Of a DNA stretch of 64,000 nucleotides, positions 3,567-53,918 are shown in pieces. Under the pieces are notes generated by a model that did not search any database, was not told where the DNA came from, and saw only the letters and a program-made list of their open reading frames with translations. Source of the DNA: Eledone cirrhosa (taxonomy: Eukaryota); assembly GCA_964016885.1 (NCBI GenBank), contig OZ024745.1:113894001-113958000 (forward strand), read 5' to 3'. Position numbers and translations under genes: made by a program. Positions within the stretch are counted from its first letter, which is position 1. Every line of letters starts with the position of its first letter.

Positions 3567-3600
<34 letters not shown>

Positions 3601-3601
<1 letters not shown>

Positions 3602-3796
3602 ACGAAGGAAATGTGGTAAGGAACCAGATGGACCATAACGCACCAAAGTACTCAATACTTAGGGTAGTAGAGTGGGTAATAGGAACAAGTAAGACCCCGA
3701 CGGCTGAGCTCAAGCCGTTTCGACGGCTAATTCTGGACTGAATTAGCCGTCGAAACGGCTTGAGCTCAGCCGTCGGGGTCCTACTTGTTCCTATTG
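3601..3796 (-). mobile_element. Fold-back PLE-like terminal element, family C
   Basis: Between (TA)n tracts; 56-bp inverted arms 3678-3733/3740-3795. Contains the hammerhead 3' half GAAAC-GGCT-tgagctc-AGCC-GTC. Confidence 0.7.
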
Positions 3797-9589: not shown

Positions 9590-10122
9590 CATTGGGAAAG
9601 TCGTTAGAATGTCCGTTAAAATGCTTTGCAGTATTTTTTCGACTCTCAGCTCACAGAGTTCAAAACCTTCTGAGGTCAACTTTGCATTTTATTCATTCAA
9701 TATCGATAAAAAAAAAGTACAAGTCTAGTACTGGGGTAGATTCTTTCTCTATAAATCTTCCGCTTTTTGATTCTCCCATTCTATATCATTATCAGCATAG
9801 AGTTACGTCCCTTTACGATCTGAGTTCAAATCACAACGAAGTCGACTTTGCCTTTCATCCTTACGGGGTCGATAAAATAAAGTACCAGTAATGCACTGAG
9901 GATAATTGCTGGCCTTGTGCCAAAAGTAGAAACAATTATCGTGGCAGTATCGTTGGAGGGTCGGACGCCATTCTTTGCAGCATAGAGTTACGTCCCTTTA
10001 CGGTCTGAGTTCAAATCCCACAGAGGTTAACTTTGCCTTTCATTCTTACGGGGTCGATAAAATAAAGTACCAGTAATGCACTGGGTAGTTTGCTGGCCTT
10101 GTGCCTAAAGTAGAAACAATTA
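9590..10122 (+). mobile_element. Three head-to-tail SINE copies (one old, one partial, one full-length young)
   Basis: SINE core repeated at ~9590-9735, ~9795-9939 and 9942-10122. Confidence 0.8.
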
Positions 10123-10229
10123 TCTGGAAAAAGAAATCTGCTATACATCAAACTTGGGGAGGAGATGCGCTGCGCCAGGTTTAAAAGATACCATAGAAAC
10201 GCTAATTGTCAATGCGGAGTTACTGCACC

Positions 10230-10620: not shown

Positions 10621-10824
10621 TTTTTATTTTATTTTATAGAAGGAGCTTCTACAGGACTAGTACTGTTTCGTTCAGATGAAATCTTCAGCTTCCTGAAGAT
10701 TTCATCTGAACGAAACAGTACTAGTCCTGTAGAAGCTCCTTCTATAAAATAAAAAAATTTTACTCTGCCATGTATTGAGTACCTTACTTACTGTGGTTAT
10801 CCCCGACTCAACCCGGGACCTACG
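10621..10824 (+). mobile_element. Fold-back PLE-like terminal element, subfamily A
   Basis: Roughly 65-bp inverted arms centred near 10690, then a unique tail ...GTATTGAGTACC...CCCGGGACCTACG; (TA)n on both sides. Confidence 0.75.
10687..10737 (+). ncRNA. Type I hammerhead ribozyme motif
   Basis: Stem I AGCTTC/GAAGCT; CTGAAGA; stem II TTC-atct-GAA (U/C at 10.1/11.1); GAAA; stem III ACAG-tactagtc-CTGT; GUA cleavage triplet at 10729-10731. Confidence 0.75.
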
Positions 10825-10923
<99 letters not shown>

Positions 10924-11115
10924 AAACTGCTAAGGTCACATGTAAATATTGATAGTTCTTTTTATTTATAATCTGCTGTAATACATATTTCTGTAGCATT
11001 AACAATTACGTAATGCTGTCACCCAACGTGCAACATGACTTCGTCATACAGTATCTTAAGTAATAAGGTTGTCATGTAATATTTGTAAGTAATGCATTAC
11101 AGACTATTGATCACA

Positions 11116-11187
<72 letters not shown>

Positions 11188-11800
11188 ATGTGTGCATGCA
11201 TATGTGTGTGTGTTTATGCACACGAAATTGTATATTATATAACGGTAACACCTGGTTTCATGTAATTTTTATTAATGGTGATAATAGATGTACAGCTGCT
11301 TGACATTACATTTAGACATTAATGAGTACAAATTGCTGATCGAGAAAATGAAATAAGAAGAATTGTATATTATTTGTGAGTATATTTGTAATGAAACAAT
11401 CTTGGGGTGACAGCTAATCTGTTTAATATTTTTAAGTCATTGTTTCTGATATCATTGTGTTTATAGTAATTTCATATTCAAGAACACAGCAAGACCTAAA
11501 GGAGGTTTTCAATCACTGACTGGCTGCTTTTCTGAGTGTGGTGCTTCCGCCAGGACAATAAAAACTTCATAAAAGGAAGTGAATCTGTTCGTTGAAAAAT
11601 TCAGTGCTTCGAAGCTCGTATCTCGTGGATTAATTTATGTTGGATTTTGTTCTTCAAGATTTGCCTATTAAATACTCCCATGTTTTTACGACCCACACAT
11701 ATCTCGCCAAAACTGCGGAAATTCTCATATTGAATTCTTGGCTGACGAGATATGTGAGTTGTACCTTGGTTTAAATTTAATTCTATATATATATATATAT

Positions 11801-12103
11801 GTATAAGAAAGTGAGTTTTTTTTTACAAAATGAAAAATAACCGAAGTGTCCTGCACGAGTGAAAGTATAAGGAAAAAAGATGAAATCGAAAATGCAACTG
11901 GAGTCTTTTTTTATTTTAAATATATATTTATTTGGTTCCTTTACCAGTTTCGCAGTTCTTCTGCTTTTCAAAAGTAGAATTGAGATGGAGAGTCTGTGGT
12001 TTTTCTCAGAAGAACTGCGAAACCGGTAAAGGAACCAAATAAATATTTATTTTTAAAAAAGAAGACGCCAGTTGCATTTACGATTTCATCTTTTTTCCTT
12101 ATA
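11801..12103 (-). mobile_element. Fold-back PLE-like terminal element, family E
   Basis: (TA)n-flanked; imperfect ~97-bp inverted arms 11866-11963/12007-12103. Carries GAAACCGGTA (minimal hammerhead stem III plus GUA) at 12019-12028; the CTGANGA half is absent. Confidence 0.6.
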
Positions 12104-12627
12104 TATATATATATATATATTACTGATTTATATCCCTGTATCAACTTGCGGATTATTACGACTGACACACAAAAGCACAGACACAAATACCAACACACAC
12201 AAATGTGCTGGAAAATGAAGGATTACACATTAAAAACTATATTAATAGATCTCTATGAAAAACATTACAGATATACCACAGAGAATAAAGGAAACAGTGG
12301 TAAGAGGAAGAGAGAAAATGTAGGCTTCACACAGAATATTCTAAAATGCCCCACTAAAAGTACTTTGTTTTTCTGTAGTGTATGTAGGGTTTCAATCAAT
12401 TAAGAAAACCCATCACTATTTGGAGTGAGACGCTGAAGAGTGTTTTAACACATCATTGGTAGCTTAATAAGCAGTTAAACAGTTTCAAACTACTTACAAC
12501 GGTAAATATCTAGGTTTTATGATTCCATCTATAGCCAAGTTTATACGAATCACCGTATTGCCACTTCGACACAAAACTGACTCTACAAGCAAAGCGACGA
12601 CCAGACAAACACTCTTATACACACACA

Positions 12628-12659
<32 letters not shown>

Positions 12660-12742
12660 CGTTATTCCGGGTTGAATCGAAGGTAACCACAGTAAATAAG
12701 GTACTCAATACATAGCAGAGTATAAAAGTTTTAATATAGATG

Positions 12743-12794
12743 AGATTCTACAGGACTAGAACTGTTTCATTCTTTAGAAAATCATCAGGAATCT
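12743..12794 (-). ncRNA. Type I hammerhead ribozyme motif (mirror copy)
   Basis: Reverse complement of 12799-12849 with one extra T in the stem II region. Confidence 0.7.
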
Positions 12795-12798
12795 GGCC

Positions 12799-12849
12799 AG
12801 ATTCCTGATGATTTCTAAAGAATGAAACAGTTCTAGTCCTGTAGAATCT
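12799..12849 (+). ncRNA. Type I hammerhead ribozyme motif
   Basis: Stem I AGATTC/GAATCT; CTGATGA; TTC-taaa-GAA; GAAA; ACAG-ttctagtc-CTGT; GUA at 12841-12843. Confidence 0.75.
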
Positions 12850-12862
12850 CATCTATATTTAA

Positions 12863-13192
<330 letters not shown>

Positions 13193-13193
13193 A

Positions 13194-13386
13194 GTTATTC
13201 CGGGTTGAATCGGATGTAACCACAGTGAGTAAGATACTCAATACATAACAGAGTATAAAAGTTTTAATATAGATGAGATTCTACAGGACTAGAACTGTTT
13301 CATTCTTTAGAAATCATCAGGAACCCTGATGATTTCTAAAGAATGAAACAGTTCTAGTCCTGTAGAATCTCATCTATATTAAAACT
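13194..13386 (-). mobile_element. Fold-back PLE-like terminal element, subfamily B
   Basis: Near-identical to 12660-12866 but with centre CAGG-aac-CCTG, which truncates hammerhead stem I. Confidence 0.75.
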
Positions 13387-16665: not shown

Positions 16666-17029
<364 letters not shown>

Positions 17030-19210: not shown

Positions 19211-19540
19211 ATATTAAAATATAAGTATTAATAAAATAGATGTTCTTTTGATCAATTACATTTTATTATACATATTTCGGATGTACAACAGTACGTCCTC
19301 ATCAGAAAAAATATAATGATACATGTATCATTATATTTTGTCTGATGAGGACGTACTGTTGTACATCCGAAATATGTATAATAAAATGTAATTGATCAAA
19401 AAAACATCTATTTTATTAATATTTATATTCTAATATTAATAACTCCTGAAAATTATTTTTTCTCGTTGAGTGCTTCCAATCTACTGTAAAACTCATTCAT
19501 TGACATAATCATCGAATATTGTTTAACAACTTAATACTTA
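19211..19540 (+). mobile_element. Fold-back PLE-like terminal element, family D
   Basis: ~113-bp arms centred on GATACA|TGTATC (19323/19324), then a unique tail with TTGAGTGCTTCCAATC; (TA)n on both sides. Confidence 0.75.
19331..19391 (+). ncRNA. Minimal type I hammerhead ribozyme motif (mirror copy on - strand at ~19256-19316)
   Basis: Stem I TTATATTTTGT/ATAAAATGTAA (2 G-U); CTGATGA; stem II GGACGTAC-tgtt-GTACATCC (one mismatch); GAAA; 2-bp stem III AT-atgt-AT; AUA triplet at 19378-19380. Confidence 0.8.
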
Positions 19541-22330: not shown

Positions 22331-22350
22331 CCTTAAAAGTTAATAAATAA

Positions 22351-22489
22351 TTGTTTCTACTTTTGGCACAAGGCCAGCAATTACCCAGTGCATTACTGGT
22401 ACTTTATTTTATCGACCTTACGGGGTCGATAAATAAAGTACCAGTAATGCACTGGGTAATTGCTGGCCTTGTGCCAAAAGTAGAAACAA
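22351..22489. mobile_element. Fold-back (palindromic) SINE 3' half
   Basis: ~67-bp inverted arms around TTACGG (22418-22423). Confidence 0.85.
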
Positions 22490-23479
22490 AAATACCAACA
22501 AAAATCATGCACCTTTGGTTACACCGCCATTCCAACTTATTAACAAGCAAAGCATTTATTACTGCATCCAGGTCAGAACACAATGTTAGTGGCTGAATTC
22601 GAAAGTTTTTAATAGAAAACGAAGCAACTTAAGCACTTTATTCACTCGACATTTATCGCTCATAACAAAAAGTAGAATGAATGAAAATAAGAATAAGAAA
22701 CTAACACAATGCTAGTTACAATAGCAACAACTCAACGAGCAACAAATCGTAATTCTATCAACAGCAACAAACAATTACTCATAAAAACAGATAAAGATCA
22801 TTAAAACAACCACTTTATTGCCATCTATTGGCTATATAATACATTAATTAAGACCCTACTACCGCTAGTTATCCATATTTTATAATCCCTTTTATAACAC
22901 AAAGCCAGGACACCGCAAATCTCCACTACTGCGTTTCGACCTCCTATATAATTAAGATATTCGTCTAACATTTTGATGTTGTCTGTATTGAATCATTGTT
23001 TGACACTAATAGTGATATTTTCTTTATAAATAGCACTACAATATGGTTGTATTTGTAGATCAAATGCTACCAAAGGAGCCTGTATATTGTGAAACAAAGT
23101 GCTAGAAATAACAGCAACATTTACATCAAATCCTACCACGAAGGCTACATAGGATAATGTTGTCCTAGATAAAATATTCTAATAGAATATTGGCGGCTGT
23201 GGCTAGAATGCCGTTGAACCTTGTTCTACTGAACTGCCGTTGAAAACAACAGAAACAAATGTCTTGAGTATTTAAATACGTATTTTTACGTTCTAAATTC
23301 AAATACTAGGCTAGGGTCAACTTTGTTTTCTTCGTCGATGCAGAAACTACCTATAGTATACCAAAGTTGATTAACTCGAATAGATGTGTCCTATTAAAAA
23401 AGCTTTGGCTTTGTGTCAATATTAGAAATGAATATTTTGTATACGAACTAGGGGTATGTTGATGTTTTAGTAACCATTA

Positions 23480-29541: not shown

Positions 29542-29585
<44 letters not shown>

Positions 29586-29586
29586 T

Positions 29587-29733
29587 AACGAAGGAAATGT
29601 GGTAAGGAACCAGGTGGACCATAACGCACCAAAGTACTCAATACTTAGGGTAGTAGAGTGAGTAATAGGAACGAGTAGGAATTAGCCGTCGAAACGGCTT
29701 GAGCTCAGCCGTCGGGGTCCTACTCGTTCCTAT
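29587..29733 (-). mobile_element. PLE-like terminal element, family C, centre deleted
   Basis: Homologous to 3601-3796; residual inverted repeat TAGGAACGAGTAGGA/TCCTACTCGTTCCTA; (TA)n flanks. Confidence 0.7.
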
Positions 29734-33356: not shown

Positions 33357-33500
33357 AACAAACAAAGTGTGTGATAAGGCACCAGAGTACACGATACTAG
33401 GATAGTAGAGTGGGTAATAGGAAAAGAGTGAGGACACCGGAAGCTGAGCTCCGGCCGTTTCGGGTCTAGCCGTCGAAACGGCCGGAGCTCTTTTCCTATA
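33357..33500 (-). mobile_element. PLE-like terminal element, diverged family C
   Basis: GCACCAGAGTAC..GATAC..TAGTAGAGTGGGTAATAGGAAAAG and inverted GAGCTCCGGCCGTTTCG/CGAAACGGCCGGAGCTC. Confidence 0.65.
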
Positions 33501-36273: not shown

Positions 36274-36308
<35 letters not shown>

Positions 36309-36310
<2 letters not shown>

Positions 36311-36468
36311 CAAATACGGTTTGGTAAGATACCAGGTGGACCATAATGCACCAGAGTACTCGATACTTATGGTAGTAGAGTGGGTAACAGGAGAAGAGTC
36401 AGGACCTCGACGTCTGAGCTGTCGAAACGGTCGGAGCTCAGCCGTCGGGGTCCTGACTCTTCCCCTTT
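36309..36468 (-). mobile_element. PLE-like terminal element, diverged family C, centre deleted
   Basis: Homologous tail; inverted GAAGAGTCAGGACC/GGTCCTGACTCTTC; GAAACGGTCGGAGCTCAGCCGTC; (TA)n flanks. Confidence 0.65.
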
Positions 36469-41539: not shown

Positions 41540-41846
41540 CCACACCACCGTCACCCTGCGTGTCACCTATCACTGTCGTCGCTGCAAGGTCCCCACCTCC
41601 CATCTCATCTACATCTGTCAGTGCTTCCCAGTCGGTGTCACCATCCAGCACCCTGTCATCTTCGCTAGGCGGTCATCTGAGTCACAGCAGCAGCAGTAGC
41701 AGCAGCAGTCCTCTCAAGCGTCATTCGCCTGGCTTGGTGTGTGTGGTGTGTGGTGACACTTCCAGTGGCAAACACTACGGTATACTTGCTTGTAACGGCT
41801 GTAGCGGCTTCTTCAAACGCAGTGTCCGACGGAAGTTGATATACAG
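41540..41846 (+). CDS. NR2E3: NR2E3/PNR-like nuclear receptor, exon with Ser/Pro-rich N-terminal region and first C4 zinc finger
   Basis: Translates to ...[46 protein letters not shown](R); the NGCSG P-box and [10 protein letters not shown] are characteristic of NR2E3/PNR/Hr51. Donor AG|GTGAGT at 41846/41847 (phase 2). Best acceptor is CTTTCTTTTGTATTTACAG| at 41539 (phase 1); the 5' boundary is less certain (alternative AG at 41462, in-frame ATG at 41491). Confidence 0.93.
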
Positions 41847-42479
41847 GTGAGTCGGTTTTATATAAGCTCTAAAAAAGAAACATAAAGAAATATAACGATC
41901 TCTCAAAAGTGGTAAGTTGGCACCATGCTGTGTTTTTTTTCCATCATTATAAATATATACAATGGCAATAGATATTATTCAATTGAATCGAGTTTGCGGC
42001 GAATAGTCTGATTCGTAGTCTGAGTGTTGGATTAAACGTTTCGGTATTTTTTACTGGCTCCCTTCTCTCTCAGTTTAAATCCCATCGAGGTCAACTTTGC
42101 CTTTTATCCTTTTGGAATCCACGGTAGGTAGAATTGTTGGTGTCAGACAGAACGTTTTGCGGTATCTCATCTGGTTCTATATGCAATGAAGAAACTAATG
42201 GAAGCATTGTCTCCTTGGCTCGATCTGACAATGATTTCCTTTCAAATCCAAAATATGGCTCTTATTATATCAATTTCATTGCATGACATTAATTGTTTAG
42301 CAAACACTTTTTTATGTGACATTAGTTAATTTTAGGGTGATCTTTATGAATACCAAAACTATTTTGCTCCATCATGTCTACATTTTGATCTACAAGAAGT
42401 GAATTATGTTGTTAACATTGCATATAATTTATTAATGTACTATTCTACAATTAATTACTGTTAAAATAACAATATACAC

Positions 42480-53499: not shown

Positions 53500-53918
<419 letters not shown>

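What the first reader, a model, noticed from the sequence alone, without database searches (positions are those of the whole stretch)
10687..12849. Compensatory covariation supports a real hammerhead fold in subfamilies A and B
Seen: stem I is AGCTTC/GAAGCT in A and AGATTC/GAATCT in B, a C-G to A-U double change. The stem II loop differs (ATCT vs TAAA) with TTC/GAA retained, the variable core position differs (CTGAAGA vs CTGATGA), and stem III ACAG/CTGT plus the GUA site are kept. Changes fall where a hammerhead tolerates them. The 10.1-11.1 pair is non-canonical (U-C or U-U). The stem III loop contains palindromic CTAG, which could permit dimeric folding as known for minimal PLE hammerheads (inference).
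Basis: partly seen in the sequence, partly recalled or inferred. Interest (0 to 1): 0.75.

Follow-up and report, generated by a model that had tools for sequence, protein, structure and literature searches.

The report
Hammerhead stubs of Penelope-like retrotransposons
The two motifs are short back-to-back stubs of a very abundant Penelope-like jumping gene of the known Hydra type; they carry a predicted self-cutting hammerhead RNA, one stem of which shows three paired changes across subfamilies, and the stubs likely end where the element's RNA begins.

Summary
A and B are 5'-truncated head-to-head stubs of the pseudo-LTR of two Hydra-clade Penelope-like elements inserted in (TA)n. Each motif was found upstream of an RT + GIY-YIG ORF elsewhere in the genome; the pattern has 27,303 matches, reversed control 0.

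Eight subfamilies give three double changes and one wobble, all in stem I (rough joint chance about 0.001-0.003). Stems II and III show no double change. The U-U opposition and ACAG/CUGU-A stem III match published Hydra hammerheads. The monomer hammerhead is 3.2-3.4 kcal/mol above the best fold; the dimer is favoured. Cleavage is untested, and a read-through transcript of these loci would be a long hairpin.

Of 99 copies chosen by their 3' end, 56 stop at stem I's 5' edge, about 30 nt after a TATA box, likely the transcript start. The scan reported this reading before on other DNA of this genome. New member of a known kind.

The parts
10687..10824 (+). Subfamily A main arm: from stem I first base (likely transcript +1) to the element's 3' end at the (TA)n junction
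   Evidence: 98.5% identical over 137 nt to the pLTR of a near-full-length element; same 3' end in fetched copies
10687..10737 (+). Predicted type I hammerhead of A; predicted cut after 10731 (GUA)
10627..10688 (-). A inverted arm (62 bp perfect); lacks the stem I 5' strand; ends in the A/T-rich patch next to (TA)n
12660..12796 (-). Subfamily B main arm carrying the element's 3' end; hammerhead 12794..12743, predicted cut after 12749, one extra T in stem II
12797..12866 (+).
13190..13386 (-). Second B stub (main arm on minus strand, 62-bp palindrome)
53572..53760 (+). Third B stub (main arm on plus strand, truncated at the core)
10825..10919 (.). (TA)n target array at A's 3' end; (TA)n also flanks A on the left and B on both sides (12631-12659, 12866-12905)

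Best explanation
A and B are truncated, head-to-head copies of the pseudo-LTR of two Hydra-clade Penelope-like retrotransposons inserted in (TA)n, and the motif they carry is a predicted type I hammerhead ribozyme whose stem I shows compensated changes across subfamilies, whose cleavage is untested, and which likely folds best as a dimer. Shown: the link to RT + GIY-YIG ORFs, the Hydra protein motifs, the copy number, three double changes in stem I, and a sharp 5' stop at stem I's first base. Inferred: transcription starts at that base, about 30 nt after a conserved TATA box. Inferred: the RT starts internally about 139 nt downstream on uncleaved sense RNA and runs off the RNA's 5' end. Inferred: the second target strand primes a second copy at the A/T-rich patch about 60 nt into the RNA, and the two cDNA ends are joined, giving the palindrome. 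Inferred: in a pLTR-ORF-pLTR transcript the two hammerheads pair through stem III and its palindromic loop and cut slowly or with protein help.
For: PLE link: the A motif lies upstream of the ORF in L125 and L124 and downstream of it in L126, L128, L131; B continues into a related ORF in L144, L163, L171 (71-84% aa identity). Hydra motifs IRWR, SDKT, CNCPDKTTC, CDLC, CMH; close homologs carry Pfam GIY-YIG. Stem I by subfamily, assigned without using the 3' strand: A AGCTTC/GAAGCT 43 of 45; B AGATTC/GAATCT 24 of 28; C1 GGCTTC/GAAGCC 9 of 11; C3 GGC(T)TTC/GAAGCC 4 of 6; E GAC(A)TTC/GAAGTC 8 of 15. Pair counts: 2 double-change pairs in A2, 1 in A3; slid controls give at most 1 such cell against 10 and 7. 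Sporadic GAATCC mutants are uncompensated in the 30 loci printed. Of 99 copies, 56 end in -12..+3 with 20 at -6; 1 ends in -59..-13; 16 run past -60. The inverted arm reaches further 5' than the main arm in 35 of 61 two-armed copies, the reverse in 15. A second family stops at the same promoter spacing but inside loop II of its own hammerhead-like motif. Dimer cofold -27.4 and -21.2 kcal/mol against 2 x monomer -19.6 and -15.2.
Against: No cleavage or transcript-end data. Only three independent double changes; the bulge in C3, C4 and E was placed by me. Two copies (L205, L277) carry AGCTCC on the 5' side, leaving C-A at pair 2. Stems II and III do not covary; RNAalifold pairs stem II's UUC with the core GAA instead. 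The C-G pair of stem II is broken in 6 of 15 rows of A3, probably CpG decay. Monomer z-scores are only -0.9 and -0.3. A cap-derived extra G is not shown (3 of 6 unambiguous junctions). Deletions at palindrome centres after insertion could also make arms unequal. The 99 copies come from the first 37 Mb of one chromosome.
Confidence: 0.75

Rival explanations
1. The motif is a hammerhead-derived structure kept for stem I only, as a 5'-terminal hairpin or protein-binding site, and it no longer cleaves.
For: Covariation is confined to stem I. The monomer's best fold keeps stem I but mispairs the core. There is no pile-up of copy ends at the cut site: 3 main arms and 1 inverted arm end in +36..+42. 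In the Anolis element, core mutants did not affect insertion in vitro (PMC11167929).
Against: Across eight subfamilies the core letters, GAAA and the NUH site are kept; the only consensus changes are at position 7, loop II, one loop III base and GUA to GUU. Copies made from cut RNA lacking its 5' piece may simply be rare.
Confidence: 0.15
2. The palindromes arise by self-priming or fold-back of one strand (the proposal for Adineta Penelopes, on an antisense template), and the stop at stem I reflects the ribozyme structure or a splice acceptor (CAG at -7..-5), not a transcript start.
For: Junctions often abut or overlap by 0-4 nt. PMC3846280 (passages) argues for self-priming. In D. virilis the intron ends at helix I's 5' end (PMC4209133), and A and B have CCCAG there.
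Against: Simple fold-back of the tail-primed cDNA cannot let the inverted arm outreach the main arm, which is seen in 35 of 61. No shared upstream exon or leader appears at junctions. The second family stops at the same promoter spacing but at a different part of its ribozyme-like motif.
Confidence: 0.2
3. The stem I matches are chance co-inheritance within related repeat lineages, and the fold is not selected.
For: Few independent events; related sequences beat shuffles without structure (the tool's own caveat).
Against: Three different pairs changed on both sides (rough joint probability 0.0008-0.0025); sporadic mutants are uncompensated; homology to published Hydra hammerheads.
Confidence: 0.05

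Closest known systems
Hydra clade of C-terminal EN+ Penelope-like elements (Craig et al. 2021, PMC8557442; passages, section 11, supplement parts 1, 2, 7 read)
   Same: Single RT + C-terminal GIY-YIG ORF of about 710 aa; DKT, CxCX5C, CxxC and CxH motifs; (TA)n target; type I hammerhead with CUGAUGAU...UGAA (U-U) as in most listed Hydra hammerheads, and ACAG/CUGU-A stem III as in Hydra-1_aMil, Penelope-1_NV and Penelope-1_SK; inverted 5'-truncated copy.
   Different: Loop III is 8 nt with a central palindrome (0-3 nt in the listed Hydra hammerheads); RWR instead of RWK; a simple-repeat-rich 3' region of roughly 1.7-2 kb makes the unit about 4 kb (listed families mostly under 3 kb). The hammerhead differs from that of Hydra-1_Obim, whose consensus is noted as having no pLTR.
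Minimal hammerheads of metazoan PLEs (Cervera and de la Pena 2014, PMC4209133; parts 1-2 of 4 read)
   Same: Type I, in pLTRs, mostly as single truncated copies, extra nucleotide after position 9, palindromic loop 3, dual motifs on opposite strands noted, subfamilies with compensatory changes.
   Different: G10.1-C11.1 is replaced by U-U or U-C; stem II is only 3 bp; stem III has 4 bp with a long loop rather than being minimal.
Poseidon element of Anolis (Frangieh et al. 2024, PMC11167929; parts 1-2 of 4 read)
   Same: Genomic 3' ends match an internal position downstream of the hammerhead; AT-rich targets; uncleaved RNA as the apparent template.
   Different: There the RT start lies inside the ORF; here the 3' end lies about 45 nt before the ATG. 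5' ends and inverted arms were not treated in the parts read.
Penelope families of Adineta vaga (Arkhipova et al. 2013, PMC3846280; passages read)
   Same: Head-to-head inverted pLTRs with palindromic junctions; putative TATA and Inr in the pLTR.
   Different: That paper explains them by self-priming on an antisense template; the end distribution here fits run-off from the sense RNA's 5' end with two priming events.

Membership tests
Type I hammerhead ribozyme | Core CUGANGA, GAAA and NUH site | tested here: met
   Present in A and B and in eight subfamily majorities; GUA, GUU in C4
Type I hammerhead ribozyme | Stem I closing the motif, with covariation | tested here: met
   6 bp; three double changes and one wobble
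Type I hammerhead ribozyme | Stems II and III supported by covariation | tested here: inconclusive
   Pairing possible, 0 double changes; loop II varies freely
Type I hammerhead ribozyme | Canonical G10.1-C11.1 pair | tested here: not met
   U-U or U-C; the same U-U is common in Hydra-clade hammerheads
Type I hammerhead ribozyme | Match to an Rfam hammerhead model | tested here: not met
   No hammerhead family at E <= 10 on 10685-10760
Type I hammerhead ribozyme | Site-specific self-cleavage | not testable with these tools
   Needs an in-vitro assay
EN+ Penelope-like element | pLTR with hammerhead flanking an RT + GIY-YIG ORF; inverted 5'-truncated copy | tested here: met
   L124-L128, L131 for A; L144, L163, L171 for B. 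The ORF itself has no significant Pfam hit; two homologs hit GIY-YIG
Hydra clade | DKT, CxCX5C linker, CxxC and CxH around E and N, no CCHH | tested here: met
   SDKTKN, CNCPDKTTC, CDLC, CMH read in the ORF against section 11
Hydra clade | RWK motif | tested here: inconclusive
   IRWR: conservative K to R change
Hydra clade | (TA)n insertion preference | tested here: met
   Most 3' junctions printed run into (TA)n
Hydra clade | Placement in the RT phylogeny | not tested
   No tree built; only a by-eye comparison with the printed part of Hydra-1_Obim
Non-LTR retrozyme | Head-to-tail tandem units each with a hammerhead, no ORF | tested here: not met
   Copies are single head-to-head stubs or ORF-linked pLTRs

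The most novel reading that the evidence does not exclude
In these Hydra elements the hammerhead sits at the very 5' end of the capped RNA. Thousands of palindromic stubs are twin-primed run-off copies of uncleaved sense RNA that map the start site to the base, and the ribozyme is held off as a monomer by a decoy fold and switched on only when the 5' and 3' pLTR copies pair through an 8-nt palindromic loop III. That would settle template strand and palindrome origin for PLEs and give a dimer-gated switch that removes the first 45 nt with the cap.
Probability: 0.45. Interest if true: 0.62.

Novelty: new member of a known kind. Interest (0 to 1): 0.38.

Why it matters
Hammerheads in PLE pseudo-LTRs are well known, so the finding itself is ordinary. 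Its value is as a test bed. A young, very abundant family with eight subfamilies shows natural compensated changes in stem I, a variant loop III that predicts dimer-only activity, and genomic stubs whose ends predict the transcript start and two-ended priming. How PLEs form inverted repeats and what their ribozyme does are stated as open in PMC8557442.

Tried and rejected
Rfam: only microRNA-type matches to hairpins and microsatellites; rejected. MITE or DNA-transposon reading: rejected, since ends are asymmetric and the motif continues into an RT ORF. My first guess of Neptune clade was dropped after the Hydra motifs were read. PDB sequence search: 0 hits. No PLE ORF in the window itself (tblastn). 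Searches for further stem I states: GAATCC (173 matches) are sporadic mutants; GAAATC (96) led to subfamily E, whose true 3' strand is GAAGTC. A first end-mapping script was confounded by simple repeats in its references and was redone with 85-nt references. Cap-G test inconclusive. Expression: no RNA holder listed; contigs of four runs gave nothing usable on ends. Lunse et al. on dimer cleavage was not held and is known to me only through the review PMC6765202 (passages). Literature searches listed no paper on this family or on twin priming in PLEs; most subscription papers, Repbase entries and bioRxiv supplements were not visible.

Full report
OBSERVATION. The two motifs are as described. 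Each sits in a head-to-head palindrome inside (TA)n: A at 10627-10754 (62-bp perfect arms), B at about 12730-12860. The core pattern has 15,006 + 12,297 matches in the 3.0-Gb genome and the reversed pattern none; a 26-nt tail word has 15,892. These count arms, not elements.

WHAT IT IS. Following longer A copies upstream and a nearby endonuclease fragment led to near-full-length elements: pLTR with the A motif, an ORF of about 710 aa starting about 185 nt after stem I's first base, a simple-repeat-rich 3' region, and the A motif again (L124, L125, L126, L128, L131). Three B copies continue into a related ORF, 71-84% identical in pieces. The protein has 1,426 homologs at E <= 0.001 among 7,991 scored; two checked homologs hit Pfam GIY-YIG, while the query itself has no significant Pfam hit. 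Its motifs IRWR, SDKT, CNCPDKTTC, CDLC and CMH match the Hydra clade definition. The published Hydra hammerhead table shows the same CUGAUGAU...UGAA arrangement in most rows and ACAG/CUGU-A in three, so the 'non-canonical' 10.1-11.1 position is a clade trait. No tree was built.

COVARIATION. I collected copies that keep their native upstream sequence (125 TATA-anchored rows; for E, 15 of 30 loci that passed the filter) and assigned subfamilies without using the 3' strand. Majority stems: A AGCTTC/GAAGCT (43 of 45); B AGATTC/GAATCT (24 of 28) and B2 (4 of 6), the exceptions being GAATCC, the variant that one search was aimed at; C1 GGCTTC/GAAGCC (9 of 11); C2 GGCTTT/GAAGCC (3 of 6); C3 GGC(T)TTC/GAAGCC (4 of 6); C4 GGC(T)TTT/GAAGCC with a GUU site (3 of 3); E GAC(A)TTC/GAAGTC (8 of 15). 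That is three double changes (pairs 4, 5 and 6 from the core), one C-G to U-G wobble, and a one-base bulge that I placed by eye in C3, C4 and E. Pair counts on hand-picked subsets gave 97.6% cells paired with 2 double-change pairs (24 rows, 19 distinct) and 92.8% with 1 (17 rows, 15 distinct); slid registers gave at most one double-change cell. The shuffle control ignores relatedness and is not a probability. Sporadic GAATCC mutants keep the parental 5' strand in the 30 loci printed, so inserted copies decay without compensation while subfamily changes are compensated. Against: two copies carry AGCTCC; stems II and III have no double change; RNAalifold prefers another register for stem II. Loop II varies at all four positions, while loop III changes at one of eight, which fits a pairing role for loop III.

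FOLDING. For the 51-nt monomers the best fold keeps stem I but mispairs the core; the hammerhead fold lies 3.2 (A) and 3.4 (B) kcal/mol higher. Two molecules cofold with stems I and III between strands (14 and 12 of 16 pairs across stem III and its loop) at -27.4 and -21.2, against -19.6 and -15.2 for two monomers; the explicit double hammerhead scores -25.6 and -18.4. Other hammerhead families in the fetched DNA have fully palindromic short stems III. RNA read through both arms of A folds into a -104.8 kcal/mol hairpin, which would hide the ribozyme at this locus.

HOW THE STUBS LIKELY FORM. I took the first 100 places of the tail word (chromosome C1, first 37 Mb), 99 distinct after removing duplicates, one of them a local partial duplication. 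With the core's first C as 0, the furthest 5' reach of either arm was -12..+3 in 56 copies (20 at -6, the first base of stem I; 42 at -7..-4), -59..-13 in 1, beyond -60 in 16 and downstream of +3 in 26. TATAAATAC begins 29-33 nt before that base in A, B, B2 and C. Of 82 short copies, 61 have an adjacent inverted arm, whose far ends cluster at +54 to +65, an A/T-rich patch. The inverted arm reaches further 5' in 35, the main arm in 15, equal in 11. A second PLE family in the window stops mostly 12-22 nt before its GAAA (46 of 61 arms), around an initiator-like A about 30 nt after a TATA-like tract that lies inside loop II of its own hammerhead-like motif, so the stop follows promoter spacing and not a ribozyme edge. 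The simplest reading is run-off from the 5' end of uncleaved sense RNA after internal initiation (as in PMC11167929), with a second priming event from the other target strand. This differs from the antisense self-priming proposal (PMC3846280) and from the TATA-less internal promoter of D. virilis Penelope (PMC2377424, passages). It remains inference: no RNA ends were available and the cap-G test was inconclusive.

PRIOR NOTES AND NOVELTY. I had reached the Hydra and start-site readings before looking at earlier scan notes (notebook). The notes report the same for other DNA of this genome, and one named twin priming, which I then tested by arm lengths. They are not independent support. In print, PLE hammerheads, their subfamily covariation, dimer dependence and inverted 5' copies are known; my searches listed no paper on this family or on twin priming in PLEs. 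The retrozyme preprint 10.64898/2026.07.22.740005 was read in part 1 of 5 only. Verdict: real, correctly read as a hammerhead, a new member of a known kind; interest 0.38.

Noticed in passing
window 3596-3795, 12900-13087, 16698-16835, 29585-29678, 33374-33490, 36304-36392; loci L410-L439: Stubs of another PLE family (ORF about 49% identical to A's, L124 8089-9998). Its native upstream forms a hammerhead-like motif with core YUGANAA (U3-A8 in most, C3 with A8 in the rest; 3,502 genome matches, none of 100 listed with G8), whose long loop II holds the TATA-like tract and initiator, so a transcript from that start would lack the ribozyme's 5' half.
   Followed up: partly
window 19305-19390: Head-to-head palindrome of a third hammerhead family (core at 19342, stem I up to 10 pairs, short A/T stem III).
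   Followed up: no
flanks of many loci, e.g. L218:306, L232:431, L234:618, L108, L128:1134: Many further type I hammerhead families with palindromic stems III (ACTAGT, AGTACT, ACGCGT, ACATGT, ACAATTGT); one (L108) has a stem II like A/B but a minimal stem III.
   Followed up: no
window 41704-41850 (+): Exon encoding a nuclear-receptor C4 zinc finger (Pfam zf-C4, E 3e-15); from recall it resembles the NR2E group.
   Followed up: partly
window 11840-12100 and 22340-22490: Two other imperfect or perfect inverted repeats of interspersed repeats; the second family also occurs as a tandem pair at about 9790-10130 and 254-657.
   Followed up: no
window 10790-10800 and equivalents: The word GTATTGAGTAC is shared by the tails of A, B, C, E and the second family; in A, B and E it follows an upstream ATG-TAT-TGA mini-ORF. 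Possible protein-binding or promoter element.
   Followed up: no
G000:C24, 13-nt spacer matches: A variant with loop sequence TTTTTTCC is concentrated on chromosome C24 (11 of the 100 listed rows are identical there).
   Followed up: no
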